DNA of 64,000 nt from a phage, in the sequence record PX068456.1, one strand, 5' to 3'. Shown here piece by piece: positions 1,362 to 64,000 of this stretch (its first letter is position 1; the number at the start of each line of letters is the position of its first letter). The notes under the pieces were generated by a model, which worked only from the letters and a program-made list of their open reading frames with translations, searched no databases and was not told the origin of the DNA. The position numbers were made by a program, and so were the translations under genes.

Positions 1362-1367
1362 TTCATT

Positions 1368-1390
1368 AAGCCCCTTCGGGGGCTTTGTTG
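1368..1390 (+). terminator. rho-independent terminator-like hairpin (AGCCCCTTCGGGGGCT + T-rich tail)
   Basis: GC stem with TTCG loop directly after the TerC-like stop. Confidence 0.5.
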
Positions 1391-1593
1391 AGGTGATCTG
1401 ATGGTGGTTTTACGTGTTCTTTGGATTCTGTTTGAAAATATTTGTTTTGCTTTAGGGCTATTTTGTTTGATTTTTATATTGACAACATATATTGATAACC
1501 ATACAATTACTATCAACAGGAACGGAGAACAGATGTATTGTTTCTCTAGAGATTTTAAAAATTGTGTTGAGACTTTAAATGAGAGGGTTACAA

Positions 1594-2184
1594 ATGAAAA
1601 ACATTAAATCTTTTATTGTTGCAGTTGTTTTAGGCAGTGCATTGCTGGTAGGTTGTGATGATTCTGAAAATGTACAAAACCAACGTTACCAACAAACACC
1701 AAATCAGATGGTAGATGAACAATATGTAAATCAACCTGCACCTCAAGTTGTTCAAGCAGCACCTGCACAACCTTCAACAGTTGTTGTGCAAGGAGGCGGC
1801 AGTGGTTCTTCTGGTGTAGGTGAGTTTGCTACAGGTATGCTTCTTGGTCATATGTTGAGTGGTAATAGTGGCGGTGGTGGTTATAGAGATGGTGGTAGCA
1901 ATACAACAGTTATTAATAACAACGCTGCTCCTACAACTAACAGTAAAGCATATACAACACAAAAGCATAGTTTTTATGATAAACAAGGGAATACATATAC
2001 AACCACTAAACAAAACACAATTAAGCAGCAAAGTGTACAAACGTATTCACGCCCATCAACAACAAAAGTGAATAGTAATTACTCTGCTCGTAAGTCTTAC
2101 TCAAGCCCTATTAGCTCTTATAGTAAGTCTTCGAAAAGTTATTCTTCGTCGAAACGTAGTTTTAGTAGCTCACGTCGTCGTTAA
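1594..2184 (+). CDS. putative lipoprotein, low-complexity S/Y/K-rich
   Basis: start moved to second ATG (RBS GAGAGGG); signal peptide ending in lipobox LLVGC; Ser/Gly/Tyr-rich body. Confidence 0.5.
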   Translation: MKNIKSFIVAVVLGSALLVGCDDSENVQNQRYQQTPNQMVDEQYVNQPAPQVVQAAPAQPSTVVVQGGGSGSSGVGEFATGMLLGHMLSGNSGGGGYRDGGSNTTVINNNAAPTTNSKAYTTQKHSFYDKQGNTYTTTKQNTIKQQSVQTYSRPSTTKVNSNYSARKSYSSPISSYSKSSKSYSSSKRSFSSSRRR

Positions 2185-2219
2185 TAATTTAATACAGATT
2201 AAATAAGAAGGAGAAACAG

Positions 2220-3071
2220 ATGAAACTAGAAGTTGGTAAAGTGTATCGCCTGGAAGGTTGGATCTTTAATCAAGAAATTCTTGAGAAGAATAAGGATGGT
2301 TTTGAGTTTGTTGGTACTACCAAAGAAAGTATGCACGATGACGAATACTGTAAATTCGTTGGTAAAAATACAGGTCAAGAACAATTTTGCTTTAAAAGCG
2401 CAATCGGTGATTATGCTTCTGTAATGCCAACGCCAGAAAAAACTTCGAAACAATATACTGTCTTTGGTGTAAAACTTGAAGAGCTTGTAGAACACCCACG
2501 TTTTGAAGAGTTTAAGGTTGCTGCAATGTGCAAGCATTCTGAAATTAAGATACATAATTTGTTTGATTTAGAAGATCGGTTTGATATCTTTATGTATGAT
2601 CGCAGGGGAAAGCATTTTGATGCAACGACTTCAAAATTTGCTGCAACAGAGGATATTAAAATCCTTGATGTTGATACCTTTCTTGAGAGTGTATCGTTTG
2701 TATTCATTCCTAAATGCAAAAAACGTAGTGATCATAAACGTGTGAAAGGAACTCCTCGTAAAAAACGTACTGTAAACAAAGCAACTTTGCACTTCACTTC
2801 TGGTGATAAATATACTCTCAAAGGGTTTGAAAGTGTTTTGTATGATGCTGGAACGGGTAATATCAAGTTTATCATTAAGGCAACCTACAAAGGTACGGTA
2901 TTGCACGAAGAGGCTGTTACACTACCTGTATTCGATATCTCTCGTGTTGAGGTACGGGGTGTTAAAGAGTCCTTCGATCTGGATTTCTTAACCACTAATG
3001 CTACTGGTTATGTTAATCTGGAAGCAGATGGAGCATTTATTACTACAAATTATTTAGATATGTTTGTTTAA
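2220..3071 (+). CDS. hypothetical protein (283 aa)
   Basis: ORF with AAGGAG RBS. Confidence 0.5.
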   Translation: MKLEVGKVYRLEGWIFNQEILEKNKDGFEFVGTTKESMHDDEYCKFVGKNTGQEQFCFKSAIGDYASVMPTPEKTSKQYTVFGVKLEELVEHPRFEEFKVAAMCKHSEIKIHNLFDLEDRFDIFMYDRRGKHFDATTSKFAATEDIKILDVDTFLESVSFVFIPKCKKRSDHKRVKGTPRKKRTVNKATLHFTSGDKYTLKGFESVLYDAGTGNIKFIIKATYKGTVLHEEAVTLPVFDISRVEVRGVKESFDLDFLTTNATGYVNLEADGAFITTNYLDMFV

Positions 3072-3139
3072 TACTTAATTTGTGTTATGATGGTGGTACA
3101 GAGGTATCACCATCTACTAAAGAATATGGAGGAAATTGA

Positions 3140-4243
3140 ATGTCCAGTCCTTTTATCAGTGCCGTAAAAAGCAAACCGTCTGAAATGAGTGTATTCACGG
3201 CAACAACAGAAAAAAGTAAGTCTTTGTTTGCTCCAAGTGCTATGGATGCAAGCCCTGTATATGCCCCTGCTGTTGCACGACCTGTACAAATGCTGCCTCC
3301 AATGTCTCGTGAAGAGATTGAACAAGTTGGTGCTGATGCAGGACTTACTCTTCGTAACCTTAATGCTGAAGTGCTTAAACACCAGCGTTCATCTCAGGGG
3401 GATGAAATGAGTGAACGTTTAACTGCACTTATTAAGCAAGCAAAGCAACTTGATCCTAATTCTATTAAACAATCTAAAGGCTTAGGTAAACTAGTTAAGA
3501 AAGTATTAGGTATGAAAGAAGATTTGTTTGGTGAATTTGACACCATCAATAATCGTATTGAAGGTTTGGTAAAGACACTCCAAACAGACTTGAAAAAAGA
3601 AGAAGATTCTTTACGATATCTGCAACGTTTAGAAGAGGCTATTGCAAAATATGCTCTTAGCTTAAACAGGGATATAGAGCTTCTAACAGCTACTTATGAA
3701 AAAGAAGAAGTTCGCCTTAATACACTACCTGAAAATGAAGTAGAAGAGCGTCAACGTACTCGTGATACTATGGATCTGCTTGAAATTCGTATTGCAGACC
3801 TGAAAGCCTTGCGTTTACTGTGTGTTCAGATGGGGCCACGTGTACAAAGTATGCAGAAAGTATCTGCAAGTTTGATGCGATCAGCCCGTAATATTGTGAA
3901 TAATGTTATTCCTGCTTACTCTGCAAACTTTTCTATGTATATTGAAAGTCTACGCCAGAAGAAAGCAGCCGATACACAGAACAATGTACTGAATGAATTT
4001 AATGCGGCTATTGCAATGGGTAGTGATCTGGCTGCACAAAACCAAATTGAAGCTACGCAACTTGCTAATCGTCAAGTATTGGATATTGAAACATTACGTC
4101 GCGATCAAGAAAACTTAGTTAAAATGTTGGAAGAAACTAACCGAATCAACACTGAAGCCCGTGCTGCTCGTATTGATTACATTCAAGAAGTGCAATCTCT
4201 TGAAGATGGTATGATTCAAACTGTTAAACGTGGTCTACTTTAA
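3140..4243 (+). CDS. coiled-coil protein, possibly TelA-like (toxic anion resistance family)
   Basis: 367 aa, predominantly helical/coiled-coil; assignment rests on size and on the TerC/TerD neighbourhood, not on a verified motif. Confidence 0.4.
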   Translation: MSSPFISAVKSKPSEMSVFTATTEKSKSLFAPSAMDASPVYAPAVARPVQMLPPMSREEIEQVGADAGLTLRNLNAEVLKHQRSSQGDEMSERLTALIKQAKQLDPNSIKQSKGLGKLVKKVLGMKEDLFGEFDTINNRIEGLVKTLQTDLKKEEDSLRYLQRLEEAIAKYALSLNRDIELLTATYEKEEVRLNTLPENEVEERQRTRDTMDLLEIRIADLKALRLLCVQMGPRVQSMQKVSASLMRSARNIVNNVIPAYSANFSMYIESLRQKKAADTQNNVLNEFNAAIAMGSDLAAQNQIEATQLANRQVLDIETLRRDQENLVKMLEETNRINTEARAARIDYIQEVQSLEDGMIQTVKRGLL

Positions 4244-4257
4244 GGAGAAATATATTA

Positions 4258-4463
4258 TGAATATTAAAATTTACAAACTGTCTGGTTCTATGATCGCTGT
4301 CCAGTATGACAATGAAGATCGTTATGTTCTCCTCCAGGATGCCTGGTTAGATGATCCTAATGTATTTACTGTCCTGCGAGAACTACGTTCTGTCTATACC
4401 TATTCTTCTAAAGATGGTTTTGATAGTTCAACGATGGAATTGGTAAAAGAGGAGAATGTGTAA
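4258..4463 (+). CDS. hypothetical small protein
   Basis: start placed at ATG after AAGGAGAAA RBS (ORF track started upstream). Confidence 0.4.
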
Positions 4464-4663
4464 TGAATAAAGATATTCACTTAACTCGTGAAGAATTACA
4501 AACCATTATGGAAGATGCTTTCATTGATGGTTGGAAACAAGGTCAAGAGTCAGATTGGTATGATGCCGAAGACTTTTTGTATTATCATATGACTGCACCT
4601 GTAGACGAGCAAACACATTCTGAAACAACTTTGGCTTTAATTGATCTTAAGGCTGGTGTATAA
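4463..4663 (+). CDS. hypothetical small protein carrying an ELQ-I-DAF-GWK-G motif
   Basis: RBS AAGAGGAG; start overlaps previous stop. Confidence 0.4.
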   Translation: MNKDIHLTREELQTIMEDAFIDGWKQGQESDWYDAEDFLYYHMTAPVDEQTHSETTLALIDLKAGV

Positions 4664-5226
4664 TGGGATGTTTTAGTTTCTTGTGCAAAGAGTCTGGTAA
4701 TGCTGCTCTTTCTACCTCTTTCGATGGTTCTCCTTGCTACCTATTTCTTTTGAAAGGTGGTAAAGTTGTTGAAGAGATGTATGGCAATTATGATAGCTAT
4801 GGTAGTGTTTTCTCTAATGAAGAAGATAAACATGGCAATCGTAAAAGATTTAAGTGGTCTATGCCTTGGGAAGAAGTTTGTAATTTGATGTTCTCTTCCG
4901 ATCTTGGAGATGGTATCGCTATGGTATTAGAAGAGCACTTTACAGGTGAGATCCCAACAGAAAGATCTGAAGAAGACCCTAACCAGGGTTGGGGTGATGG
5001 AGAAGAAGATCCAGATTGCTTCTTCAGCACTGAAAATAATAAATTTAAACGTGTTGACAATCCTTACCACAAAGTGCATAATACTTGCATTGAGACAGAA
5101 GAAGACTCAAAGCTAGAAATTGAAGATGATTTAGTTGTAACTATCTCTTTAAACGAGTTGCAAAAGATCACCAGAGAGGCTTTCTATTTAGGCTGGAGGG
5201 CAGGTAAAGGAGAAGACAGTGCTTAA
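4663..5226 (+). CDS. hypothetical acidic protein; C-terminus repeats the motif of the preceding ORF
   Basis: C-terminal SLNELQKITREAFYLGWRAGKGED resembles TREELQTIMEDAFIDGWKQGQE in the 4463-4663 ORF. Confidence 0.45.
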   Translation: MGCFSFLCKESGNAALSTSFDGSPCYLFLLKGGKVVEEMYGNYDSYGSVFSNEEDKHGNRKRFKWSMPWEEVCNLMFSSDLGDGIAMVLEEHFTGEIPTERSEEDPNQGWGDGEEDPDCFFSTENNKFKRVDNPYHKVHNTCIETEEDSKLEIEDDLVVTISLNELQKITREAFYLGWRAGKGEDSA

Positions 5227-5488
5227 ATTTAATATCAAAGACGATAAATCAGATGAACCTAAATGTTTTGGAGAACTTGACGCAGGTGATACATTCGTAT
5301 ATTATGTTGCGTATCAAGATTCTGGTTTAGATACGTTCAGAAACTTAGTGTTTATTAAAGTTAATACAAACCAAGCAATGTGTCTGAACGGTTCACAAAG
5401 AGGTCAACTTAGCTGTATTTCATATGATACAGAAATGGTAGAAGTGGATTTAGAAGTTACTAACATTACACTCAGAAAGGAGAAATAA
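5219..5488 (+). CDS. hypothetical protein (GTG start)
   Basis: RBS AAAGGAGAAG upstream of GTG. Confidence 0.4.
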   Translation: MLKFNIKDDKSDEPKCFGELDAGDTFVYYVAYQDSGLDTFRNLVFIKVNTNQAMCLNGSQRGQLSCISYDTEMVEVDLEVTNITLRKEK

Positions 5489-5489
5489 T

Positions 5490-6284
5490 ATGTCCAATAA
5501 AATCAGTCTTAAAAAACGTCAAGAAACTCTTACTGTATCTCTGCGTAAGAAAAAGATTAACGATGTTGTTCTTCGTGTCGGTAGCGCCTTAGATATTTCG
5601 GGTAGTATGTGTGAGCTGTATCGTGATGGCACTGTTAGTGATTTTGTAGGTAAACTGCTGCCGTTTGGTATGAAGTTTGATGACAATGCACAGATTGACA
5701 TGTGGGCTTTCAATAGTTCTTCTTTTGAACTGCCTCCTGCAACGGCTGATGTGTATGATGATTATGTCGGCTCTTGCATGTCTAATGTTTGCATCAATGG
5801 TGGTACTGCTTATGCTCCAGTAATGCAGGAGATCTATGATACATACTTCGGTAGTGTACCTATGAAAAATATTACACGCGAAGTCGTTGAGTATGAAGAA
5901 GTCCCAGCTAAGGGTTTCCTTGCTAAACTAACTGGTAAAAAAGAACTTGTAGAAGTAACACGTACTGTTGTAGAACAGGTTGTAGATACTGATGCACAAG
6001 TTGATCGTACTCCTGCAATGATTTTCTTCCAAACTGACGGGGAAAACATGGATACTTCAGCAGTACGTAGCTTACTGAACAAACACCGCAATACGCCTGT
6101 TTACTGGTTTATGGTTGGTGTAGGTAATGCAAACTTTAAATTCCTGAAAGACTTGGCAAAAGAGTACGATAATGTTGATTTTATCGGTATTGCAGATTTG
6201 TCCTTGTCTGATGAAGAACTTTACGATAAATTGTTATCTGAAGAGTTTGGTGAGTGGGTTAAAAAATTCGGAGCAAAAGCGTAA
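5490..6284 (+). CDS. von Willebrand factor A (vWA) domain protein with TerD-like N-terminal segment
   Basis: N-terminus ISLKK..TLTVSL parallels the TerD N-terminus; VVLRVGSALDISGSM looks like a MIDAS D-x-S-x-S motif. Confidence 0.5.
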   Translation: MSNKISLKKRQETLTVSLRKKKINDVVLRVGSALDISGSMCELYRDGTVSDFVGKLLPFGMKFDDNAQIDMWAFNSSSFELPPATADVYDDYVGSCMSNVCINGGTAYAPVMQEIYDTYFGSVPMKNITREVVEYEEVPAKGFLAKLTGKKELVEVTRTVVEQVVDTDAQVDRTPAMIFFQTDGENMDTSAVRSLLNKHRNTPVYWFMVGVGNANFKFLKDLAKEYDNVDFIGIADLSLSDEELYDKLLSEEFGEWVKKFGAKA

Positions 6285-6292
6285 AAAAAACG

Positions 6293-6320
6293 CTTGACTT
6301 TGTAGAAAAGATTAGTAAAA
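6293..6320 (+). promoter_or_regulatory. sigma70-like promoter candidate (TTGACT, 16 nt spacer, TAAAAT)
   Basis: read directly upstream of the TerD-like gene. Confidence 0.4.
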
Positions 6321-6358
6321 TAGACAACGTAAATTAACAACAAAGGAGATAATAAATT

Positions 6359-6955
6359 ATGACTCAGAAAATTTCCCTGAAAAAAGGTTCTAGCGAAAAA
6401 GTTTCTCTGAAAAAGATCGCACCAGCACTGAAACGCATTCGTCTGGAATTCTCTTGGAAATCTAACGAAAAACTGGATCTGGATGTTAGTGCTCTGATTT
6501 GCCGACACAATGCATCTGGTCTGCCGGAACTGTTGTCTCCTCGTCACCTGGTGTGCTACGCACAGAAATTTGATCCTGAACGTTCTACTTTTGCAGGTGA
6601 AGATGTTCGTGATGGTGTAGGACAGATGGAGCAGATTGATGTTACACTGGATAATATCTCTGCTGAAGCACAGGAAATTGCATTCGTAATTACTATTGAT
6701 GACGAAACGGGTAAGAAACGCCTTGGTCACGCTACCGAAGGTTTCCTTAAAATCTTCGATGATGAACGTAATGTTGAACTGCTGGACTTTGACTTCTTGG
6801 CTCCAGAACTTGCAGGTAACACCATTTGCCACGTTGCCTCCCTGGTGCGAGAAGATAGCGAATGGAAACTGAAAGCATATGGTGTAGGTAAAGCTGGGCT
6901 TGACATTTACGATGTAGTTAAAGCGTTTGGCGCTGGCGAAGATTGGTTCGAGTAA
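6359..6955 (+). CDS. terD: TerD-domain stress protein
   Basis: 198 aa; N-terminal ISLKKG..VSLKK and overall size typical of TerD/TerE/TerZ; strongly host-like codon usage (CTG, CGT). Confidence 0.65.
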   Translation: MTQKISLKKGSSEKVSLKKIAPALKRIRLEFSWKSNEKLDLDVSALICRHNASGLPELLSPRHLVCYAQKFDPERSTFAGEDVRDGVGQMEQIDVTLDNISAEAQEIAFVITIDDETGKKRLGHATEGFLKIFDDERNVELLDFDFLAPELAGNTICHVASLVREDSEWKLKAYGVGKAGLDIYDVVKAFGAGEDWFE

Positions 6956-7714: not shown

Positions 7715-8224
7715 TTGTCAATAAAAACCTTTGTCGCAATTGCGTTACTATCCTTAACTGCTTTTACATTTACACCTGTTGTGGCGCAAGCCGAAGCTGC
7801 AAACGTAAAAACTGCTAAAGTAGTTCACAAGTGTACAAAGCGTGATAGTAAAGAAAATCTATTAGCTTGTGCAATCTATGCAGAAAGTCGTAATCAAGGA
7901 AAGCGCGGTATGTCTGCTGTTGGTAATGTAGTATTGAATAGGGCGAGAGATTCATATTTCCCTGATACTATAAAAGAAGTTTTGTTTCAAAAAGGACAAT
8001 TCTCTTACACGAAGACATTCAACGTTATGGAACACGATAAGTGGAAAGACGCTAAAGCTATAGCAGAACGTCTACTTTATCTCGATAACCATTTTCCAGA
8101 ATTACGAATTGCATTAGATATTACAAAAGGAGCACTATACTTTAAAAAATCTACAATAAGAGCACACTGGGAAAAAGATATGGTTCTAGTGTACCGCTAC
8201 AAAGAACATCAATTCTATCGCTAA
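7715..8224 (+). CDS. secreted cell-wall hydrolase, SleB-like (candidate endolysin)
   Basis: TTG start after AGGAGG; N-terminal signal peptide (..TPVVAQAEA); AIYAESRNQG...AVGNVVLNR resembles the SleB-type hydrolase motif. Confidence 0.55.
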   Translation: MSIKTFVAIALLSLTAFTFTPVVAQAEAANVKTAKVVHKCTKRDSKENLLACAIYAESRNQGKRGMSAVGNVVLNRARDSYFPDTIKEVLFQKGQFSYTKTFNVMEHDKWKDAKAIAERLLYLDNHFPELRIALDITKGALYFKKSTIRAHWEKDMVLVYRYKEHQFYR

Positions 8225-8972: not shown

Positions 8973-9536
8973 ATGATATTTCACATAACTCCCTATCTTT
9001 CTGGAGATATTGGAAAAGGTATCAATGACACAATAAGTGTCTTACCAGAAGATAGTTGGATTTGCCTAAGAGACATTGATACAATGTTTCTTCTTCCAGA
9101 ACAACCTGCTTGGTTGGAATCAATAGTCCGTTCAAATCCTGATTTTGATGTTCTTGGTGCATCTTGTAATAGATTGGGATCAACATATCAATTATTTAAT
9201 AATGAAAGAAGTGAAGATCCAAATATATTACACCACATTGAGATTGCAAAAAGAGCACATCTAGAATGGGGAAACTCAGTAGAGGAAGTACCTACAGATG
9301 CTATCTTAGCAGGATTCTTTCTTCTCTTTCGTAAGAGTCTGTGGAATGAAATCCCTTTTGAGGAAAGATCAATACAGTTTGATATAATTTTCTCTAAAGC
9401 ATTACACGCTAACAATAAAAGGCTAGGTTTACTACGTGGGTTATATTTATTTCACACATACCGTTTAGGTAATGATGATCCTAGAAAAGCTGTTTCACAC
9501 CTTTTACATTGTCAAGACATGAATAAAATTATTTAA
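8973..9536 (+). CDS. hypothetical protein, possibly glycosyltransferase-associated
   Basis: RBS GGAGGGAG; lies immediately upstream of the glycosyltransferase-like genes. Confidence 0.4.
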   Translation: MIFHITPYLSGDIGKGINDTISVLPEDSWICLRDIDTMFLLPEQPAWLESIVRSNPDFDVLGASCNRLGSTYQLFNNERSEDPNILHHIEIAKRAHLEWGNSVEEVPTDAILAGFFLLFRKSLWNEIPFEERSIQFDIIFSKALHANNKRLGLLRGLYLFHTYRLGNDDPRKAVSHLLHCQDMNKII

Positions 9537-9545
9537 GGAGTTATT

Positions 9546-10232
9546 TTGGAAAATACAAAAATTGGTGTTGGTGTTATTACTGTAGGTAAGCGTCCTCTTA
9601 AAGATTATCTTGTGACTGATCCTAATGCTACTTTTGTTGTACAGTATGATCGGGAACGAAAAGGTGTTGCATATGCCCGTAATGAACTGATGAAAAAGTT
9701 TTATGATGAAGGGTATGATTACTGGTTTATTTTTGATGATGATTGCTATCCGGTTGTGCCAGGTTGGGAAACATATTTTGTAAAACAGGCTAAGGAAAAT
9801 GGCTGGGATTTCTTTGGTATGCCTGAATATTTTAAAGATAAAGTAAAAGGTATTGAAGGTGAAGTGGTTATTTGGGAACTAGGTATGTGCCAGTTTGGTA
9901 TGTATTCCCGTGCAGTTATTGAGAAAGCTGGCTATTTCCGTTCATACACCCACGGTTATGGATATGAAGATGCAGAGTGGATTCAGCGCGTTCCACTGGC
10001 AGGTTTGAACCGAGGTATTCACGGCGTACCATGTCCTATTCGAATTATGGCGTTTATCCATCCTGACGATGTGTTTGGAGATAATCCTTTACCTTTTGCA
10101 AATCTGTCAAAAGAAGAGAAAGAACAGGGGATTGGTGTAAACTGGGAACAATATAAACAATCACTGGAGGATCTTCGCAATGGTAAAACTTTTATCTCTT
10201 ATGAGGAGGCTCAAAAATATGGTAAATCCTAA
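9546..10232 (+). CDS. glycosyltransferase-like protein (GT-A fold candidate)
   Basis: TTG start after AAGGAG; FDDDCYP (DxD-like) and GYGYEDAEW motifs. Confidence 0.45.
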   Translation: MENTKIGVGVITVGKRPLKDYLVTDPNATFVVQYDRERKGVAYARNELMKKFYDEGYDYWFIFDDDCYPVVPGWETYFVKQAKENGWDFFGMPEYFKDKVKGIEGEVVIWELGMCQFGMYSRAVIEKAGYFRSYTHGYGYEDAEWIQRVPLAGLNRGIHGVPCPIRIMAFIHPDDVFGDNPLPFANLSKEEKEQGIGVNWEQYKQSLEDLRNGKTFISYEEAQKYGKS

Positions 10233-11193
10233 TACTCCTGTACTTAAGTGTGATAATAAGTTAGGCAGTGGTTGTGATTACCATCGTATTGTAATGCCAT
10301 TTGCGGGAAATACGTTTAAGCCTAAGAAAGACGTTTTAGTTTTTAATAGAGTGTATTCTCGTGGATCAGACGAAGTTAAACGCCTGAAGGCACAAGGTGT
10401 TAAGATTATTGTTGATTTAGATGACTTTTATTCGCTTAATCCTGAACATTATATGGCTGGCGTATTTACTAATCACTCAAAGACTATTGTAGAGATGGTT
10501 AAGTTAGCAGATGTTGTTACTGTAACAACAGAATACCTAGCTTACAAAATTCGTCATTTAAATCGTAATGTTGTCGTTATTAGAAACGCACTACCTTACG
10601 ATGAAGGTCAATTTACTTTGACAAAAGACCGTTATTCTGACACGCCTATCGTTTGGGCTGGAGGAGCAAGCCATGAACCTGATTTATCTCTTGTAGCTAA
10701 CACATTTGATGATACGCTATTGACAATTGCAGGGTATGAAGTGTATCCTTCTGCACCTGTTGGAAATAATAGTCAGTATCTAACTACTGCGGAGTGGGTT
10801 AAAGTAAAACGTAAAATTCCAAATGCACAGTATAAACCAGCTATTAAAAATTTAGGTGAGTATATGTCTGTGTATGACGGTCACAGTATTGCAATTGCTC
10901 CTCTGGTAGATAATGACTTCAACAACTGTAAAAGCAATCTGAAGATTTTGGAAGCAGGTGCAAAGGGTCTTCCTATTATCTGTTCTCCTGTGCTGCCGTA
11001 CTTCAATCCTGTGGATGCAAAGGCTGTTATTTATGCAGACTCCAAAGCATCTTGGCATTATGAAGTTGTCAAGCTAATGAGGAACCCTAGATACACAGAA
11101 GATCGTGGTATGATGCTTGCAGAACACGTTCGTCTTAATTATAATCTTGCAGATGCCAATGAACTGCGTCGTCAAGTTATTGAAAGTCTTTAA
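10219..11193 (+). CDS. glycosyltransferase-like protein, paralog 1
   Basis: start moved to ATG with GAGGAGG RBS; shares VLTKDRYS..P.VWAG and YDGH.I.IAPLV.N.FNN.KSNLKILEAGAKGLP..CSP with the next ORF. Confidence 0.5.
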   Translation: MVNPNTPVLKCDNKLGSGCDYHRIVMPFAGNTFKPKKDVLVFNRVYSRGSDEVKRLKAQGVKIIVDLDDFYSLNPEHYMAGVFTNHSKTIVEMVKLADVVTVTTEYLAYKIRHLNRNVVVIRNALPYDEGQFTLTKDRYSDTPIVWAGGASHEPDLSLVANTFDDTLLTIAGYEVYPSAPVGNNSQYLTTAEWVKVKRKIPNAQYKPAIKNLGEYMSVYDGHSIAIAPLVDNDFNNCKSNLKILEAGAKGLPIICSPVLPYFNPVDAKAVIYADSKASWHYEVVKLMRNPRYTEDRGMMLAEHVRLNYNLADANELRRQVIESL

Positions 11194-11204
11194 CAAGGAG
11201 CCAT

Positions 11205-12149
11205 ATGCCTAATATTATTCTTGACACACGTGGACATGAAAGGTATAGTGTATGTGATTTTCATAGAATCATTTTGCCATATAAACGCAAACTGACCATT
11301 AATCCTAAGCATAATATTTTTGTGTTCAATGGAGTACCAACTCGTGGAAAGCCAGGTTTCCTGGCTCTTAAACAACTTGGGTTTAAATTGGTAATGGATC
11401 TGGATGATTCTTTAATTATTCCTGAAGGGCATATGTTGGAAGGATTATTTGAAAATCAAATCCGAGACGACCTAAAATGGTTCCTTGAAAGAAGCGATCT
11501 TGTAACTACAACAACTCCAGCATTAAAGGTTGAATTAAGCCAATACAATGATAATGTACATATTGTGCCTAACGGACTACCTTTTGATGAAGGGCAGTTT
11601 GTTCTTACTAAAGATCGTTATTCTAAAAGCCCACTGGTTTGGGCGGGAAGTGAAACACATAAACATGATTTAGCAATTCTTCCTACTTTTGGTAAAGATT
11701 TAACGTTATGTGGATTTCGTAGAGATCACGAAGAGTTAAGTAGTGCTCAATGGTTGCAAATTAAAGAAGAGATTCAACCAGATTGTGTTTATGAAGGTAT
11801 TCGTCCTTATGAGTGTTATATGGAGGCATACGATGGTCATCAAATCTCCATAGCTCCATTAGTAAATAATCATTTTAATAATGCCAAAAGTAATTTAAAA
11901 ATTCTTGAGGCTGGTGCTAAAGGTTTGCCACTCGTTTGTTCTCCACGAGAGAACTACTATACGGAAGAATTTAAAGATCTAATCTTCTTTGCTGATTCAG
12001 TTAAAGAGTGGAAAGATGTTGTAGAATACTTAATCGAATCTCCTGATGTTTGTATTGAGAAAGGATTAGCTCTTGCTAAGTATGTAAGAGATAACTACAA
12101 TATTGATGATTTAAATGAAACCCGCAGACTGCTTATCGAGGATTTATAA
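11205..12149 (+). CDS. glycosyltransferase-like protein, paralog 2
   Basis: tandem paralog of 10219-11193; KILEAGAKGLP resembles GT-B C-terminal motif. Confidence 0.5.
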   Translation: MPNIILDTRGHERYSVCDFHRIILPYKRKLTINPKHNIFVFNGVPTRGKPGFLALKQLGFKLVMDLDDSLIIPEGHMLEGLFENQIRDDLKWFLERSDLVTTTTPALKVELSQYNDNVHIVPNGLPFDEGQFVLTKDRYSKSPLVWAGSETHKHDLAILPTFGKDLTLCGFRRDHEELSSAQWLQIKEEIQPDCVYEGIRPYECYMEAYDGHQISIAPLVNNHFNNAKSNLKILEAGAKGLPLVCSPRENYYTEEFKDLIFFADSVKEWKDVVEYLIESPDVCIEKGLALAKYVRDNYNIDDLNETRRLLIEDL

Positions 12150-60557: not shown

Positions 60558-60633
60558 TGGTCAGTGCGGCAGGACTCGAACCTGCGACCCGAAGCATCCA
60601 AAGCTCCCACGCTACCAACTGCGCTACGCACTG
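60558..60633 (-). tRNA. tRNA-Pro(UGG): tRNA-Pro (anticodon TGG)
   Basis: acceptor CAGTGCG/CGCACTG, D arm GCGC-AGTTGGTA-GCGT, anticodon loop TTTGGAT, T arm GCAGG-TTCGAGT-CCTGC. Confidence 0.7.
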
Positions 60634-60640
60634 TAAATAC

Positions 60641-60715
60641 TGGCTGGAGATCTAGGAATCGAACCTAGTCATCACGACTTCAAAGGCCGTTGCCTTCCCA
60701 CTAGGCTAATCTCCA
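60641..60715 (-). tRNA. tRNA-Gln(UUG): tRNA-Gln (anticodon TTG)
   Basis: acceptor TGGAGAT/ATCTCCA, anticodon stem ACGGC/GTCGT loop CTTTGAA, T arm CTAGG-TTCGATT-CCTAG. Confidence 0.7.
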
Positions 60716-60814
60716 ATAAAACTAAAAATCACTTAAAAAGAACCGCTAGAGTTTGAAGGAGAAAACCATGAGCGAAAAGAGAAATTTTCTCTAGCGATTC
60801 CATTTAAATAATCT

Positions 60815-60889
60815 TGGAGCGAGTAACAGGACTTGAACCTGCACCTGGAGGGTGGAAACCTCATATGCTACCATTAACACTATACCCGC
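60815..60889 (-). tRNA. tRNA-Gly(UCC): tRNA-Gly (anticodon TCC)
   Basis: acceptor GCGGGTA/TACTCGC, anticodon loop TTTCCAC, T arm GCAGG-TTCAAGT-CCTGT. Confidence 0.65.
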
Positions 60890-60944
60890 TTAACAATATT
60901 ACTCTAACATATTATTAGCCCCTTTGTCAAGAGGCTTTTGATAT

Positions 60945-61268
60945 TTATTTTAAAATAGTAGATGCACCACGTCTGTTTAGATATGCAATAGTAAAATCCA
61001 AATCACCTATTTCTTCAGGTTCCCACTGACCTTCTAAACCATAACAAGAACAATGATATGCGTGTACTTCATAAAACAAAGATGTTTTCATATCATAAAA
61101 ATAAACGTGAGATTCACCTTCATAATATGCACAATCATAAGTGGCAGAAAGAATTACAATGTTATCCTTATCTAACTCTACTTCATAATATCTTTCAACA
61201 TCTTCAATATCATCAAAACCATCGAAAACATTGATATTAAAATATTTCTCTAACTCTTTTTCTGTCAC
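60945..61268 (-). CDS. hypothetical protein embedded in the tRNA cluster
   Basis: 107-aa ORF between tRNA-Gly and tRNA-Thr. Confidence 0.4.
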   Translation of the reverse strand: MTEKELEKYFNINVFDGFDDIEDVERYYEVELDKDNIVILSATYDCAYYEGESHVYFYDMKTSLFYEVHAYHCSCYGLEGQWEPEEIGDLDFTIAYLNRRGASTILK

Positions 61269-61291
61269 ATATACTCCTTTAGAGTTAAAAT

Positions 61292-61366
61292 TGGTGCTCC
61301 CACAAGGACTCGAACCCTGATAAGTTGCTTACAAGGCAACCGTAATAGCCGTTATACGATAGGAGC
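61292..61366 (-). tRNA. tRNA-Thr(UGU): tRNA-Thr (anticodon TGT)
   Basis: acceptor GCTCCTA/TGGGAGC, anticodon stem GTTGC/GCAAC loop CTTGTAA, T arm CAGGG-TTCGAGT-CCTTG. Confidence 0.7.
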
Positions 61367-61445
61367 AAAATATTTGCTTGGTAGGATTTGATACCTACAA
61401 TTCTAGAAAATTCTAGAGGTTTCTATTAACTCTACAAGCACTATT

Positions 61446-61530
61446 TGGCGATGGATCAAGGATTTGAACCTTGCTAGAACTTTCGTTCACGGATTAACAG
61501 TCCGTCGCCCAACCACTAGGCCAATCCATC
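61446..61530 (-). tRNA. tRNA with Asn anticodon (GTT) but an unusually long, hairpin-forming variable region
   Basis: acceptor GATGGAT/ATCCATC perfect, anticodon arm ACGGA-CTGTTAA-TCCGT, 15-nt variable region GAACGAAAGTTCTAG, T arm CAAGG-TTCAAAT-CCTTG. Confidence 0.5.
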
Positions 61531-61537
61531 TTTAATT

Positions 61538-61623
61538 TGGTGCAGGTAGTTGGACTCGAACCAACGAAGCCCCGAAGGGCAGGAGATTTACAGTCTCCAG
61601 CAATTGCCGCTATGCGATACCTA
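61538..61623 (-). tRNA. tRNA-Tyr(GUA): tRNA-Tyr (anticodon GTA), type II
   Basis: acceptor GTAGGTA/TACCTGC, anticodon stem GGAGA/TCTCC loop CTGTAAA, long variable arm, T arm GTTGG-TTCGAGT-CCAAC. Confidence 0.7.
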
Positions 61624-61629
61624 CGTGTT

Positions 61630-61705
61630 TGGTACATCGTGAAGGATTCGAACCTTCGACCTTGGAGTTAAAAGCCCCTTGCTCTACCAACTAAGCTAAC
61701 GATGT
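61630..61705 (-). tRNA. tRNA-Lys(UUU): tRNA-Lys (anticodon TTT)
   Basis: acceptor ACATCGT/ACGATGT perfect, D arm GCTT-AGTTGGTA-GAGC, anticodon loop CTTTTAA, T arm GAAGG-TTCGAAT-CCTTC. Confidence 0.7.
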
Positions 61706-61838
61706 ATAAATTATCTTTAAAATAGCCAGTGTTTGCGGCACTTGACTATGAAGTATTAGGGTATCGGTAAGATGGTGGAGGCCATCTGCCGAAAGTTTAC
61801 TCTATTAAAGTAAGATTACAAGCTACATTAAAGATAAC

Positions 61839-61924
61839 TTGGCGGTAGATGTAGGACTTGAACCTACACGCCGTTTCCGACGACAGTTTAGCAAACTGTT
61901 GTGGCTACCATTTCACCAATCTAC
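61839..61924 (-). tRNA. tRNA-Ser(GCU): tRNA-Ser (anticodon GCT), type II
   Basis: acceptor GGTAGAT/ATCTACC perfect, anticodon stem ACAGT/ACTGT loop TTGCTAA, long variable arm, T arm GTAGG-TTCAAGT-CCTAC. Confidence 0.7.
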
Positions 61925-61933
61925 CGTTCTTAA

Positions 61934-62086
61934 TTATTCAAAACAACCGGAATCTTTTTGTTCTGCTTTTACCATACGAATATTTTTACCATCTTCAGAT
62001 TGTTGAAGATTAGAATACTCATAAACAACTTTATTATCTACAATCTTAACTCCGGTAACAACCTGTCCAATAGTTTTATAATTCAT
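61934..62086 (-). CDS. hypothetical small protein embedded in the tRNA cluster
   Basis: start moved to internal ATG with AGGAG RBS so that it does not overlap the tRNA-Ser(TGA) gene. Confidence 0.3.
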   Translation of the reverse strand: MNYKTIGQVVTGVKIVDNKVVYEYSNLQQSEDGKNIRMVKAEQKDSGCFE

Positions 62087-62104
62087 AAAGCTCCTAGTTG
62101 AATT

Positions 62105-62194
62105 TGGAGGAAGATAATGGAGTCGAACCATCACCGTATCGCTACAATGGGCCAGGGTTCAAACCTGGTTGCGCACCGCTGCGCCCTACCTTCC
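62105..62194 (-). tRNA. tRNA-Ser(UGA): tRNA-Ser (anticodon TGA), type II
   Basis: acceptor GGAAGGT/ATCTTCC, anticodon stem CCAGG/CCTGG loop TTTGAAC, long variable arm, T arm GATGG-TTCGACT-CCATT. Confidence 0.6.
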
Positions 62195-62257
62195 CGTTAT
62201 CATACTTTAAATCTAACATAAAACTATCTTGCTTGTCAAGTAGTTTTTAAAACTTTT

Positions 62258-62339
62258 TGGTCGGGGTGACAGGATTCGAACCTGCATACTCCAATTACTC
62301 GGTTAACGCCTGATTAGAAGTCAGGTGAGATACACCCCG
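62258..62339 (-). tRNA. atypical tRNA-like gene with Arg anticodon (TCT); no recognisable D arm, 23-nt region between anticodon and T arms
   Basis: acceptor CGGGGTG/CACCCCG perfect, anticodon arm CCTGA-CTTCTAA-TCAGG, T arm GCAGG-TTCGAAT-CCTGT. Confidence 0.45.
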
Positions 62340-62411
62340 TTTTCACAGTAACTATAACAAAAAACTAAGTGAATGTCAAGATATTTTTACTAAAATTATT
62401 ATTTAAATTGA

Positions 62412-62517
62412 AGCCTAGTTATGGAATCGAACCATATTTCGTATTTAGTTAGACAAAGCGGTCTAACATATTTTTCAGGCTTTGATGGCCTCGGAATTAC
62501 CAAATACCCTACTAGGC
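62412..62517 (-). ncRNA. tRNA-like element of ~106 nt (canonical T arm and matching acceptor halves, oversized body)
   Basis: T arm TATGG-TTCGATT-CCATA and perfect acceptor GCCTAGT/ACTAGGC about 100 nt apart; internal 7-bp hairpin GTTAGAC..GTCTAAC; no confident anticodon arm. Confidence 0.25.
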
Positions 62518-62519
62518 GT

Positions 62520-62605
62520 TGGTGCAAGTGGAGGGATTCGAACCCTCAATCATTTAAGCGTTGCGTTTTAAGCACAATGTGTATCACCAATTCCACCACA
62601 CTTGC
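62520..62605 (-). tRNA. tRNA-Leu(UAA): tRNA-Leu (anticodon TAA), type II
   Basis: acceptor GCAAGTG/CACTTGC perfect, anticodon stem TTGTG/CGCAA loop CTTAAAA, long variable arm, T arm GAGGG-TTCGAAT-CCCTC. Confidence 0.7.
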
Positions 62606-62719
62606 ATATAGGAGATGCATAGCACCTCCTTTTAAATGGTGGTTCCCCAGGGTTACAATCCCTGCCCTCGACACTTATGAGGTGTGCGCTCTCGTCAGTG
62701 AGCTATGGAACCTTGAATA

Positions 62720-63166: not shown

Positions 63167-63388
63167 TTATGTGAAATCTAATTCCTCCTCTGGTGCTGTG
63201 TAATTTAGAAGAAGATCAGTTACACTTTGATGTTGATAAACCCTTTCGGGACTGTCATCGAATGCCAAACTTGTACAAATCGAGCATAGATCCGACTCTT
63301 GAATATTACCATTCCTGTCTCTACGGGAATGATTAGTCAAGTGTCTGTTACAGGCTCGGCAACGAAAATAAAAATTATGTTGTTTCAT
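63167..63388 (-). CDS. hypothetical Cys-rich small protein (zinc-finger-like)
   Basis: CRACNRH ... CSIC pairs of cysteines. Confidence 0.4.
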   Translation of the reverse strand: MKQHNFYFRCRACNRHLTNHSRRDRNGNIQESDLCSICTSLAFDDSPERVYQHQSVTDLLLNYTAPEEELDFT

Positions 63389-63459: not shown

Positions 63460-64000
63460 TTAGTCAACCTGGATGGTTCCCATAGTACGAAGAACCTCTA
63501 CGTCAACACGGTTGCGGATATCAGTAAATGTTTCATCACGTCCTTCTACTTGTGGTGTAATAACCTTACCATTCTTGAAGATAACTTGTAACTCATTGTC
63601 TTCATCCTGGATATCTTTAAAAGAAAGATTATCTACAAGAGAAAGATTACCATTGGTATCCTTAACAACCTTAATAAAACCTTTTGCAGAGCGTTTACCA
63701 GGATCAGTTTTAGGCTCCTTACTTACCAAAATTTCGTGTTCACCGATGATGCTACCTGTTGCTTTAACAGCAAAACCAAAAGTATCTCGTGTATTGAACT
63801 GATAAGTATAACTACCAACACCAAATACAATATTGGAAGCTGCAAAACCTTTCTTCTTCAGTCGGCGTAAGATCTCGTGTTCTCGTTCAACAGTAATAGA
63901 ATCACCATAAATCATACCGATATGCTGATCAAGAACCTTGTAGCCTTTTCGGTTGATAGTACCACCAAACACTTCCCAAAGGATTTGAATAGAACCTACT
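63460..64000 (-). CDS. nicotinamide phosphoribosyltransferase (NAMPT/NadV-like), C-terminal part; gene continues beyond the window
   Basis: IVFGVGSYTYQ..TRDTFGFAVKAT..DPGKRSAKG..VIFKNGKV matches the conserved C-terminal region of NAMPT; the in-frame ORF is open to the window edge. Confidence 0.6.
   Translation of the reverse strand, partial: VGSIQILWEVFGGTINRKGYKVLDQHIGMIYGDSITVEREHEILRRLKKKGFAASNIVFGVGSYTYQFNTRDTFGFAVKATGSIIGEHEILVSKEPKTDPGKRSAKGFIKVVKDTNGNLSLVDNLSFKDIQDEDNELQVIFKNGKVITPQVEGRDETFTDIRNRVDVEVLRTMGTIQVD

What the first reader, a model, noticed from the sequence alone, without database searches (positions are those of the whole stretch)
63460..64000. Nicotinamide phosphoribosyltransferase gene at the window edge: NAD+ salvage, possibly linked to the Ter module
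The product matches the conserved C-terminal half of NAMPT. Phage NAD+ salvage enzymes can replenish NAD+ depleted by host NADase-based defences. Phosphoribosyltransferases are also recurrent partners of Ter systems, so this gene and the Ter-like module at the other end of the window may be functionally connected.
Basis: partly seen in the sequence, partly recalled or inferred. Interest (0 to 1): 0.5.

Follow-up and report, generated by a model that had tools for sequence, protein, structure and literature searches.

The report
Phage NAD+-rebuilding enzyme Namat, gene end
The window edge holds the last third of a phage gene that looks like nicotinamide phosphoribosyltransferase but is almost certainly Namat, the second enzyme of the known NARP1 pathway that rebuilds NAD+ after bacterial defences destroy it. 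This phage group is already listed as carrying NARP1, and the gene has no link to the tellurite-resistance-like genes at the other end of the window.

Summary
A minus-strand ORF ends at 63460-63462 and runs off the window at 64000. It encodes the last 179 residues (31%) of a 577-aa NAMPT-family protein.

The window comes from a Justusliebigvirus (phi92-like) E. coli phage. In 99%-identical genomes the full gene sits 71 nt downstream of a PRPP-synthetase-like gene.

The pair is not canonical Prs + NAMPT. It matches NARP1: Adps (ADP-ribose to ADPR-PP) plus Namat (ADPR-PP + nicotinamide to NAD+).
- The window carries the Namat signature GSYTYQFNTRD, with the two adenine-clamping aromatics.
- The best solved-structure match is SPbetaL1 Namat.
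- In 135 related loci, an aromatic at the third motif position tracked an adjacent Adps-like gene in 100 of 103 cases, and no non-aromatic locus (0 of 32) had one.
- Osterman et al.'s supplementary tables already list phi92, PHB05 and three BASEL Justusliebigvirus phages as Adps/Namat carriers.

The proposed Ter link fails. The Ter genes lie about 56.5 kb away on the opposite strand. The sister-genus phage phAPEC8 has the Ter genes but no NARP1. Bas63 has a working NARP1 but no Ter genes.

Verdict: correct family, refined function, already known, low interest.

The parts
63460..64000 (-). 3' end of namat (nicotinamide ADP-ribose transferase, a NAMPT-family type II phosphoribosyltransferase). 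It holds codons 399-577 plus the stop codon (63460-63462). The first 398 codons and the upstream adps gene lie beyond the window edge.
   Evidence: Open frame. Pfam, PHROG and PDB matches. The protein is 100% identical to the C-terminus of the 577-aa PHB05 protein. The best solved-structure match is SPbetaL1 Namat, 9W5X/9W5W.
63784..63816 (-). Selectivity-clamp helix (SCH) signature GSYTYQFNTRD. Tyr (position 3) and Phe (position 7) are the adenine-stacking aromatics that define Namat. TRD is shared with NAMPT.
   Evidence: Translation. The motif GS-X-Phi-X-Phi-X-Phi-TRD is defined in PMC12774641. True Nampts differ: H. ducreyi NadV GAQTYQRNTRD, mouse GGALLQKLTRD, T4-like phage Nampt GGGLLQEVTRD.
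63898..63909 (-). YGDS. It is equivalent to SPbetaL1 Namat Gly360-Asp361-Ala362, which contact the NMN ribose and the AMP phosphate and ribose of NAD+.
   Evidence: Translation. Alignment. Residue roles from PMC12774641.

Best explanation
The fragment is the 3' third of namat, the second gene of the two-gene NAD+ reconstitution pathway 1 (NARP1) of a Justusliebigvirus (phi92-like) coliphage.

Mechanism, shown for homologues in phages Bas63 and SPbetaL1 and inferred here:
1. An NADase defence effector (SIR2, TIR or SEFIR type) cleaves NAD+ into ADP-ribose and nicotinamide.
2. The PRPP-synthetase-like enzyme Adps, encoded just upstream beyond the window edge, uses ATP to pyrophosphorylate ADP-ribose to ADPR-PP.
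3. Namat then swaps the pyrophosphate for nicotinamide and regenerates NAD+ in one step, without host NMN salvage enzymes.

The part encoded in the window supplies the ribose/phosphate-binding YGDS loop and the selectivity-clamp helix. The aromatics of that helix stack on the adenine of ADPR-PP and favour it over PRPP.

In this phage genus the pair sits at the head of the leftward (minus-strand) gene block. It precedes a few small ORFs, a 16-tRNA array and the terminase and structural genes. The pair is absent from the otherwise syntenic slot of the one sister-genus (Phapecoctavirus) genome examined, phAPEC8.
For: 1. Clamp motif. The Namat-specific motif GSYTYQFNTRD lies inside the window (definition).
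2. Solved structures. The best match is SPbetaL1 Namat 9W5X/9W5W. For the fragment: 156 bits, against 140 for H. ducreyi NadV, 71 for Xanthomonas Nampt and 65 for human NAMPT. For the full-length proxy: 400 against 340, 176 and 169 bits.
3. Full-length proxy (PHB05). It is 39% identical to the in vivo validated Bas63 Namat and 46% to the crystallised SPbetaL1 Namat. All catalytic-core residues are invariant: D13, Y15, F189, R192, D215, H245, R306, D308, G360, D361, T398, R399, D400.
4. Upstream gene.
   - It lies 71 nt upstream and is Prs-like.
   - It is 36% identical to Bas63 Adps and keeps the SPbetaL1 catalytic Lys162.
   - It has the Adps-type loop DDICDGGRTF instead of the canonical PRPS DDxxxTGGT.
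   - It scores far below every Prs equivalog cut-off, as Bas63 Adps does.
5. Adps adjacency.
   - Of the 80 closest IMG/VR relatives, 74 have a same-strand Adps-like gene within 4 kb, and in 72 it lies upstream. Three of the six exceptions are cut by contig ends.
   - Across 135 phage and bacterial loci, an aromatic at motif position 3 goes with an adjacent Adps-like gene in 100 of 103 cases. Non-aromatic loci have one in 0 of 32.
   - In an NJ tree the protein groups with Adps-associated sequences next to the Bas63 clade.
6. Published listing. Osterman et al. (bioRxiv 10.1101/2024.02.11.579819) list PHB05, phi92, JohannJBalmer, PaulScherrer and EmilieFrey as 'Adps-associated' in Supplementary Table 2. 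Their upstream genes appear in Supplementary Table 1 of Adps homologs.
7. Matching counts. 56 phage records have the fragment at 95% identity or more, and 56 have the Adps at 95% or more.
Against: - No enzyme of this genus has been assayed, so the function is inferred from 39-46% identical homologues.
- adps and the first 398 codons of namat are not in the window. They are inferred from 99%-identical genomes.
- Percent identity over the fragment alone does not separate Namat from the bona fide NadV of Pasteurellaceae (53% to each). The call rests on the motif, the neighbour and the full-length scores.
- The variable clamp loop (SCL, outside the window) has Lys at the expected position. It is followed by Asn-Phe rather than the Trp of Bas63, so the third stacking residue is uncertain.
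- Namat keeps some NMN-forming activity with PRPP in vitro, so 'NAMPT activity' is not excluded as a side reaction.
- The motif-neighbour association counts related sequences, not independent events.
Confidence: 0.9

Rival explanations
1. Canonical NAD+ salvage. The gene encodes a true NAMPT/NadV that makes NMN from nicotinamide and PRPP. The neighbouring gene is a true PRPP synthetase. Host NadR/NadD or a phage NMNAT then completes NAD+, as in NARP2.
For: Pfam, NCBIfam and PHROG all name it nicotinamide or nicotinate phosphoribosyltransferase, and they name the neighbour ribose-phosphate pyrophosphokinase. The catalytic core is identical to that of NAMPT. SPbetaL1 Namat does make NMN from PRPP in vitro.
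Against: - The same libraries give the experimentally proven Bas63 Namat and Adps the same names and scores, so they cannot discriminate.
- The window carries the aromatic clamp that true Nampts lack.
- No Prs-like neighbour was found next to any of the 35 clamp-less Nampt/NadV loci examined.
- No nucleotidyltransferase (NMNAT) domain appeared in the listed part of the Pfam census of the window ORFs (25 of 31 families shown). None is annotated in the 19 kb around the gene in PHB05.
- In Bas63 the pair worked in a pncC nadR double mutant, and Adps did not make PRPP.
Confidence: 0.07
2. Ter-linked phosphoribosyltransferase. The gene works with the TerC/TelA/TerF/TerD module at the other end of the window, for example by making the nucleoside-like metabolite proposed for Ter systems.
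For: A genuine abbreviated Ter module is present: TerC 384-1361, TelA 3140-4243, vWA-TerF 5490-6284 and TerD 6359-6955. PRTases are described partners of Ter systems (PMC7824862). Both modules occur in every Justusliebigvirus genome seen.
Against: - The two are about 56.5 kb apart, on opposite strands and in different gene blocks, with tail, head, terminase and tRNA genes between them.
- They separate in both directions. Phapecoctavirus phAPEC8 has all four Ter genes (67-81% identical) and no Namat or Adps anywhere in its 147.7 kb. Bas63 has a proven NARP1 and no Ter gene.
- TerD occurs in 144 phage records. Adps-like genes occur in 1567 and NAMPT-family genes in 2025.
- Ter PRTases are described as nucleobase PRTases inside Ter operons. 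This protein belongs to the NAPRTase family.
Confidence: 0.02
3. An inactive remnant or decaying gene with no current function.
For: Only a truncated piece is visible in the window. The sister-genus phage phAPEC8 lacks the gene.
Against: The truncation is only the window edge. The frame is open for all 179 codons. The protein is 97-100% conserved in 56 phage genomes. All catalytic and clamp residues are intact.
Confidence: 0.01

Closest known systems
Namat of Bacillus phage SPbetaL1 (PDB 9W5X, 9W5W; NARP1)
   Same: It is the best solved-structure match: 1e-44 for the fragment and 1e-118 for the full-length proxy. It shares the same catalytic core and the same SCH signature (GSFTYQYNTRD against GSYTYQFNTRD). 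An adps gene lies directly upstream.
   Different: Identity is 46% overall. The coliphage protein is 577 aa against 491. It has an insertion of about 30 aa after the catalytic His region and one of about 57 aa between RPDSGDP and the FGG motif. Its clamp loop has Lys-Asn-Phe where SPbetaL1 has the stacking Arg40. Its C-terminal tail is longer.
Bas63 (JohannRWettstein) gp79/gp80, the NARP1 pair validated by deletion in vivo
   Same: The gene order is the same (adps then namat). Both are long-form Namats, 593 and 577 aa. The SCH is GSYTYQYMTRD. The Adps loop DDICDGGRTF is the same. Both are E. coli phages.
   Different: Identity is 39% for Namat and 36% for Adps. The phage family differs (Felixounavirus), as does the genomic position (among nucleotide-metabolism genes rather than ahead of a tRNA array). 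Bas63 has no Ter module.
NadV of Haemophilus ducreyi and other Pasteurellaceae (PDB 9KE8), a bona fide bacterial Nampt
   Same: It is 53% identical over the fragment and scores 340 bits with the full-length proxy. The catalytic core and TRD are the same.
   Different: The clamp positions are non-aromatic (GAQTYQRNTRD). No Prs-like neighbour was found in any of 29 Pasteurellaceae loci.
Human or mouse NAMPT and Xanthomonas Nampt
   Same: The fold family (PF04095), the dimeric type II PRTase core and the catalytic His are shared.
   Different: Identity is about 31% over the fragment. The SCH-equivalent is GGALLQKLTRD, with no adenine clamp. The substrate is PRPP and the product is NMN.
NARP2-type phage Nampt (Nmnat-associated, e.g. 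Cronobacter phage leE-like, Caulobacter phage CcrSC)
   Same: These are phage-encoded NAMPT-family enzymes used to restore NAD+.
   Different: Identity to SPbetaL1 Namat is 33%. The motifs are GGGLLQEVTRD and GGGMATADMDRD. No Adps neighbour was found in the six leE-like loci examined. They work through NMN plus an NMN adenylyltransferase.

Membership tests
Namat (NARP1 nicotinamide ADP-ribose transferase) | NAMPT-like catalytic core: Asp13, Tyr15, Phe189, Arg192, Asp215, catalytic His, Arg306, Asp308, Gly360-Asp361 and Thr-Arg-Asp398-400 (SPbetaL1 numbering) | tested here: met
   All are invariant in the alignment of SPbetaL1, Bas63 and the PHB05 full-length proxy. The window itself shows YGDS and TRD. 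The N-terminal residues are seen only in the 100%-identical-over-fragment PHB05 protein.
Namat (NARP1 nicotinamide ADP-ribose transferase) | [quoted passage not shown] | tested here: met
   Window 63784-63816 encodes GSYTYQFNTRD, with Tyr at position 3 and Phe at position 7.
Namat (NARP1 nicotinamide ADP-ribose transferase) | Selectivity-clamp loop (beta1-beta2) with Arg, Lys or Tyr at its third position and a stacking residue there or next to it | tested here: inconclusive
   This loop lies outside the window. PHB05 has TPR-NDK-NF. Lys is at the expected position, but it is followed by Asn and then Phe rather than an aromatic directly, as in Bas63 (K-W).
Namat (NARP1 nicotinamide ADP-ribose transferase) | An Adps-clade PRPS-like gene immediately adjacent (97% of Adps genes have a Namat neighbour, per Osterman et al.) | tested here: met
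   The gene is not in the window. It is present 71 nt upstream in PHB05 and is 100% identical in EC.P2. It has the Adps-type DDICDGGRTF loop and the conserved Lys162 equivalent. It is listed as an Adps homolog in Supplementary Table 1.
Namat (NARP1 nicotinamide ADP-ribose transferase) | Preference for ADPR-PP over PRPP, with direct NAD+ formation | not testable with these tools
   This is a biochemical property. It has been shown only for the SPbetaL1 enzyme.
Namat (NARP1 nicotinamide ADP-ribose transferase) | Rescue of phage replication from NAD+-depleting defences, independent of host pncC and nadR | not testable with these tools
   This has been shown for Bas63, Fado and engineered SBSphiJ, not for a Justusliebigvirus.
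Canonical NAMPT/NadV (NMN-forming salvage, including NARP2) | Membership of the NAPRTase/NAMPT sequence family | tested here: met
   PF04095 at 1.5e-21. NF006629 gives 463 bits for the full-length proxy, above the cut-off of 405. The proven Bas63 Namat scores 468, so this feature does not discriminate.
Canonical NAMPT/NadV (NMN-forming salvage, including NARP2) | Open pocket entrance: SCH-equivalent without adenine-stacking aromatics | tested here: not met
   The window has Tyr and Phe where H. ducreyi NadV has Gln/Arg, mouse Nampt has Ala/Lys and leE-type Nampt has Gly/Glu.
Canonical NAMPT/NadV (NMN-forming salvage, including NARP2) | Genomic association with an NMN adenylyltransferase (NadM/NatV/NadR) rather than with Adps | tested here: not met
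   No nucleotidyltransferase or Nudix family appeared in the listed part of the Pfam census of 64 window ORFs (25 of 31 families shown). None is annotated within 19 kb in PHB05. The neighbour is Adps-like. The rest of the phage genome was not scanned.
Ter-system-associated phosphoribosyltransferase | Embedded in, or adjacent to, the Ter gene cluster | tested here: not met
   The Ter genes are at 384-6955 on the plus strand. namat is at 63460-64000 on the minus strand. About 56.5 kb of replication, tail, head, terminase and tRNA genes lie between them.
Ter-system-associated phosphoribosyltransferase | Co-inheritance with Ter genes across genomes | tested here: not met
   phAPEC8 has Ter genes but no Namat or Adps. 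Bas63 has NARP1 but no Ter genes. TerD is in 144 phage records and Adps-like genes in 1567.

The most novel reading that the evidence does not exclude
The most novel reading not excluded concerns the long form of Namat. The Justusliebigvirus and Felixounavirus enzymes (577-593 aa) carry about 30 and about 57-85 extra residues that the crystallised 491-aa SPbetaL1 enzyme lacks. The Justusliebigvirus enzyme also has a Lys-Asn-Phe clamp-loop variant. These extras could form a subdomain that changes regulation, substrate range (for example other ADPR-derived products) or coupling to Adps. That would make this enzyme mechanistically distinct from the solved Namat. The insertions lie just outside the window. 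Only their presence and frequency were checked: a long RPDS-to-FGG spacing in about half of 78 relatives.
Probability: 0.1. Interest if true: 0.35.

Novelty: already known. Interest (0 to 1): 0.15.

Why it matters
- Annotation. Public records and all three family libraries call this gene 'nicotinamide (or nicotinate) phosphoribosyltransferase' and call its neighbour 'ribose-phosphate pyrophosphokinase'. The better reading is the NARP1 counter-defence pair.
- Host range. This predicts that phi92-like coliphages, several of which are considered for therapy, can resist NAD+-depleting defences such as SIR2-HerA, type I Thoeris, DSR1/2 and SEFIR.
- A natural comparison. The sister-genus phage phAPEC8 has the same backbone and the same Ter genes but lacks the pair. 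Comparing the two genera could measure what NARP1 contributes.
- No new biology is revealed. The pathway, its structures and its presence in this phage genus are all published.

Tried and rejected
1. Family libraries. Pfam, NCBIfam and PHROGs were tested for separating Namat from NAMPT and Adps from Prs. They cannot, because the proven Bas63 proteins get the same names and scores.
2. A possible third NARP1 gene. The 73-aa CxxC...CxxC ORF just downstream (63167-63388) follows namat in six related IMG/VR loci, two of them with unrelated flanks. It was rejected because the same ORF (about 75% identical) sits at the same place in Phapecoctavirus genomes such as phAPEC8, which was shown to lack NARP1.
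3. The Ter link. It was rejected on distance, strand and separation in both directions across genomes. No PRTase-like domain was found in the unannotated ORFs of the Ter region, even at E <= 1.
4. PDB entry 9KE8. A paper search for it found nothing relevant. A genome scan identified it as H. ducreyi NadV.
5. A locus search with a broad eight-sequence alignment failed for lack of conserved stretches. It worked with five closer sequences.
6. A terminator downstream of the gene. None was predicted, and promoter-like sites were no more frequent than in shuffled sequence.
7. Structure prediction of the terminase insertion (a side observation) gave pLDDT 44.8, too low for a fold search.
8. The large protein-database searches were not used, because the verdict did not depend on them.

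Full report
**1. What is there**

On the minus strand an ORF ends with a stop codon at 63460-63462 and stays open to the last base of the window. The 179 residues it encodes match three libraries:
- the NAPRTase/NAMPT family in Pfam, at 1.5e-21;
- three PHROG families named nicotinamide phosphoribosyl transferase, at 2e-73 to 1e-57;
- 32 distinct solved NAMPT-family sequences.

The observation and its coordinates are therefore correct. The gene is read leftwards, so the missing part lies beyond coordinate 64000.

**2. Source and full-length gene**

The last 1.3 kb of the window is 98-99.3% identical to 56 phage genomes of the genus Justusliebigvirus (phi92-like, Stephanstirmvirinae, about 147 kb). 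The best match is vB_EcoM_PHB05. The encoded fragment is 100% identical to the protein of six of these records.

In PHB05 the gene is 1,734 nt (577 aa), so the window holds residues 399-577, or 31% of the protein rather than half. A 297-aa gene annotated ribose-phosphate pyrophosphokinase lies 71 nt upstream on the same strand.

The first 12 kb of the window match phage EC.P2 best, at 99.4%. EC.P2's copy of the upstream gene is 100% identical to PHB05's. 56 records carry the fragment at 95% identity or more, and 56 carry the upstream gene at 95% or more.

**3. Why this is Namat and not a canonical NAMPT**

The gene pair 'Prs + Nampt' is exactly the configuration that Osterman et al. showed to be mis-annotated (bioRxiv 10.1101/2024.02.11.579819).
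- The Prs-like enzyme, Adps, pyrophosphorylates ADP-ribose to ADPR-PP.
- The Nampt-like enzyme, Namat, joins ADPR-PP and nicotinamide directly into NAD+.
- Deleting the pair from Bas63 sensitised it to SIR2-HerA. The rescue did not need host pncC or nadR.

The crystal-structure paper on SPbetaL1 Namat (PMC12774641) defines what separates Namat from Nampt. The catalytic core is unchanged, and Namat adds an adenine 'selectivity clamp'. [quoted passage not shown]

Window 63784-63816 encodes GSYTYQFNTRD, a full match. True Nampts differ at these positions:

| Enzyme | Motif |
|---|---|
| Window (this phage) | GSYTYQFNTRD |
| H. ducreyi NadV | GAQTYQRNTRD |
| Mouse Nampt | GGALLQKLTRD |
| T4-like phage Nampt (leE-like) | GGGLLQEVTRD |
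| Caulobacter phage CcrSC Nampt | GGGMATADMDRD |

**4. Similarity scores**

The best solved-structure matches are 9W5X and 9W5W, which are SPbetaL1 Namat.

| Solved structure | Fragment, bits | Full-length proxy, bits |
|---|---|---|
| SPbetaL1 Namat (9W5X/9W5W) | 156 | 400 |
| H. ducreyi NadV (9KE8) | 140 | 340 |
| Xanthomonas Nampt | 71 | 169 |
| Human NAMPT | 65 | 176 |

A genome scan identified 9KE8 as Haemophilus ducreyi NadV, at 98% identity.

Percent identity over the fragment alone does not separate Namat from Pasteurellaceae NadV: it is 53% to each. The assignment therefore rests on the motif, the neighbour and the full-length comparison.

The full-length proxy is 39% identical to Bas63 Namat and 46% to SPbetaL1 Namat. 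Every catalytic-core residue named in the structure paper is invariant.

**5. The neighbour is Adps-like**

- It is 36% identical to Bas63 Adps.
- It conserves the Lys equivalent to SPbetaL1 Lys162, whose mutation abolishes activity.
- It has the loop DDICDGGRTF where canonical PRPP synthetases have DDxxxTGGT. The Adps structure paper reports this PP-loop region as conserved across Adps homologues and proposes it as an annotation rule (PMC13586617).
- Like Bas63 Adps, it scores far below the cut-offs of all Prs equivalog models. For example, it reaches 98 bits against a cut-off of 297.

**6. Independent test on related loci**

I fetched three sets of loci:
- the 80 closest IMG/VR relatives of the fragment, 46-99% identical;
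- 57 bacterial loci related to H. ducreyi NadV;
- 6 T4-like phage Nampt loci.

In the IMG/VR set, 74 of 80 loci have a same-strand Adps-like gene within 4 kb. It lies upstream in 72, with a median gap of 23 nt. Three of the six exceptions are cut by contig ends.

In the bacterial set, the 29 Pasteurellaceae NadV loci have no Prs-like neighbour. The 26 whose motif could be read have a non-aromatic position 3. The other 28 bacterial loci all have an upstream Adps-like gene, 24 of them with a DDICDGG-type loop. The 27 whose motif could be read have the aromatic form.

| Motif position 3 | Adps-like neighbour | No such neighbour |
|---|---|---|
| Aromatic | 100 | 3 |
| Non-aromatic | 0 | 32 |

Fisher's exact test gives p = 6e-28. 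These sequences are related, so the p-value overstates independence. In a neighbour-joining tree the protein groups with Adps-associated sequences beside the Bas63 clade.

**7. Already published**

Supplementary Table 2 of Osterman et al. lists the Namat homologues of PHB05 (MF805809_00104), phi92 (FR775895_00104), JohannJBalmer, PaulScherrer and EmilieFrey as 'Adps-associated'. Supplementary Table 1 lists their upstream genes as Adps homologs.

Those three BASEL phages plus Bas63 account for the 'four phages' in which the operon was first noticed. No paper in the searched library reports an experiment on the Justusliebigvirus pair itself.

**8. The Ter idea**

The Ter-like module is real. On the plus strand it comprises TerC (384-1361), TelA (3140-4243), a vWA-TerF-like protein (5490-6284) and TerD (6359-6955). 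It belongs to the rightward gene block (58-20596), which also holds glycosyltransferases, primase-helicase and DNA polymerase. namat heads the leftward block (20632-64000), which holds tail, head, portal, terminase and tRNA genes.

Across genomes the two modules separate in both directions:
- phAPEC8, of the sister genus Phapecoctavirus, has all four Ter genes at 67-81% identity. It has no Namat or Adps homologue in its complete 147.7-kb genome. Its syntenic slot goes straight from the leftward early genes to small ORFs and the tRNA array.
- Bas63 has a proven NARP1 and no Ter gene.

TerD is found in 144 phage records. Adps-like genes are found in 1,567 and NAMPT-family genes in 2,025. Ter-associated PRTases are described as nucleobase PRTases inside Ter operons (PMC7824862). 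This protein belongs to the NAPRTase family. The link is not supported.

**9. Mechanism, shown versus inferred**

Shown in other phages:
- the two reactions, the ADPR-PP intermediate and the substrate preference of Namat;
- the roles of the clamp residues;
- counter-defence against SIR2-HerA, Thoeris type I, DSR1/2, SEFIR and Kongming.

Shown here by sequence:
- family membership and an intact catalytic core;
- the clamp motif in the window;
- the Adps-type neighbour in near-identical genomes;
- clade membership.

Inferred:
- that the Justusliebigvirus enzymes catalyse the same reactions and protect these phages;
- that the window's own genome carries adps.

Uncertain: the third clamp residue. 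The loop reads Lys-Asn-Phe rather than Arg or Lys-Trp. The role of the two insertions that make this a long-form Namat is also unknown.

**10. Verdict**

The specific enzyme and pathway should be corrected to Namat/NARP1, and the Ter connection dropped. The feature is an already catalogued member of a known system, so interest is low.

Noticed in passing
window 57449-57910 (minus strand), inside the terminase large subunit gene 55952-58036: The terminase Walker A motif is split by a 154-aa insertion. The sequence reads VMIYGGAAG | CVSAETEY...HIFVTGN | SGKSRLLLL, whereas Bas63 TerL has a contiguous LYGGAAGAGKT. The insertion starts with Cys, ends with Asn and is followed by Ser, which is the pattern of a mini-intein in the P-loop. 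Pfam (E <= 1) and a PDB sequence search found nothing. A single-sequence structure model was all-beta but low in confidence (pLDDT 44.8). phAPEC8 TerL has nearly the same length (691 aa, 86% identical).
   Followed up: partly
window 384-6955 (plus strand): An abbreviated Ter-like module is present: TerC, TelA, a vWA-TerF-like protein and TerD, interspersed with ORFs of unknown function (1579-2184, 2220-3071, 4663-5226). These ORFs have only phage-specific PHROG matches and no PRTase or HAD domain. The module is shared at 67-81% identity with the Phapecoctavirus phage phAPEC8. It is followed by a cell-wall hydrolase (7715-8224) and several glycosyltransferase-like genes (8973-12149).
   Followed up: partly
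window 59836-62712 (minus strand): An array of 16 tRNA genes, including three tRNA-Met, two Ser and two Leu, lies directly downstream of namat and the small ORFs and upstream of the terminase region. phAPEC8 has only 11 tRNAs annotated at the syntenic place.
   Followed up: no
window 63167-63388 (minus strand): A 73-aa ORF with two CxxC pairs (zinc-ribbon-like, phrog_37033, function unknown) lies immediately downstream of namat. It also occurs, about 75% identical, in Phapecoctavirus genomes such as phAPEC8, which lacks NARP1. It is therefore a backbone gene and not a third NARP1 component.
   Followed up: yes
L001:9760-11493 (PHB05, beyond the window edge) and IMG/VR loci L005-L084: About half of the closest Namat relatives are 'long forms', with 40-80 extra residues between the RPDSGDP motif and the FGG motif relative to the crystallised SPbetaL1 enzyme. 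Justusliebigvirus and Bas63 belong to this group. The insertion ends just before the first residue encoded in the window. Its function is unknown.
   Followed up: partly
bacterial loci L097-L153: In a neighbour-joining tree, Pasteurellaceae NadV (a true Nampt, with no Adps neighbour and a non-aromatic clamp) forms one cluster nested among Adps-associated Namat-like sequences. Many marine Gammaproteobacteria and Acetobacteraceae carry chromosomal adps-namat pairs with the full clamp motif. This suggests switching between Namat and Nampt specificity within one clade. The tree has no support values.
   Followed up: partly
PHROG library, seen with L001:11568-12458 and L001:9763-11493: phrog_12872 (547 positions, named nicotinamide phosphoribosyl transferase) matches Adps over its first 222 positions and Namat over positions 221-536. 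The profile seems to be built from fused or merged Adps-Namat proteins.
   Followed up: no
L091:24129-24929 (phAPEC8, not in the window): The sister-genus phage phAPEC8 annotates a phage-encoded Sir2-like protein. The AntiDefenseFinder paper lists the anti-TIR gene Atd1 in Phapecoctavirus and Justusliebigvirus. These phages may therefore carry further NAD-related conflict genes outside this window.
   Followed up: no
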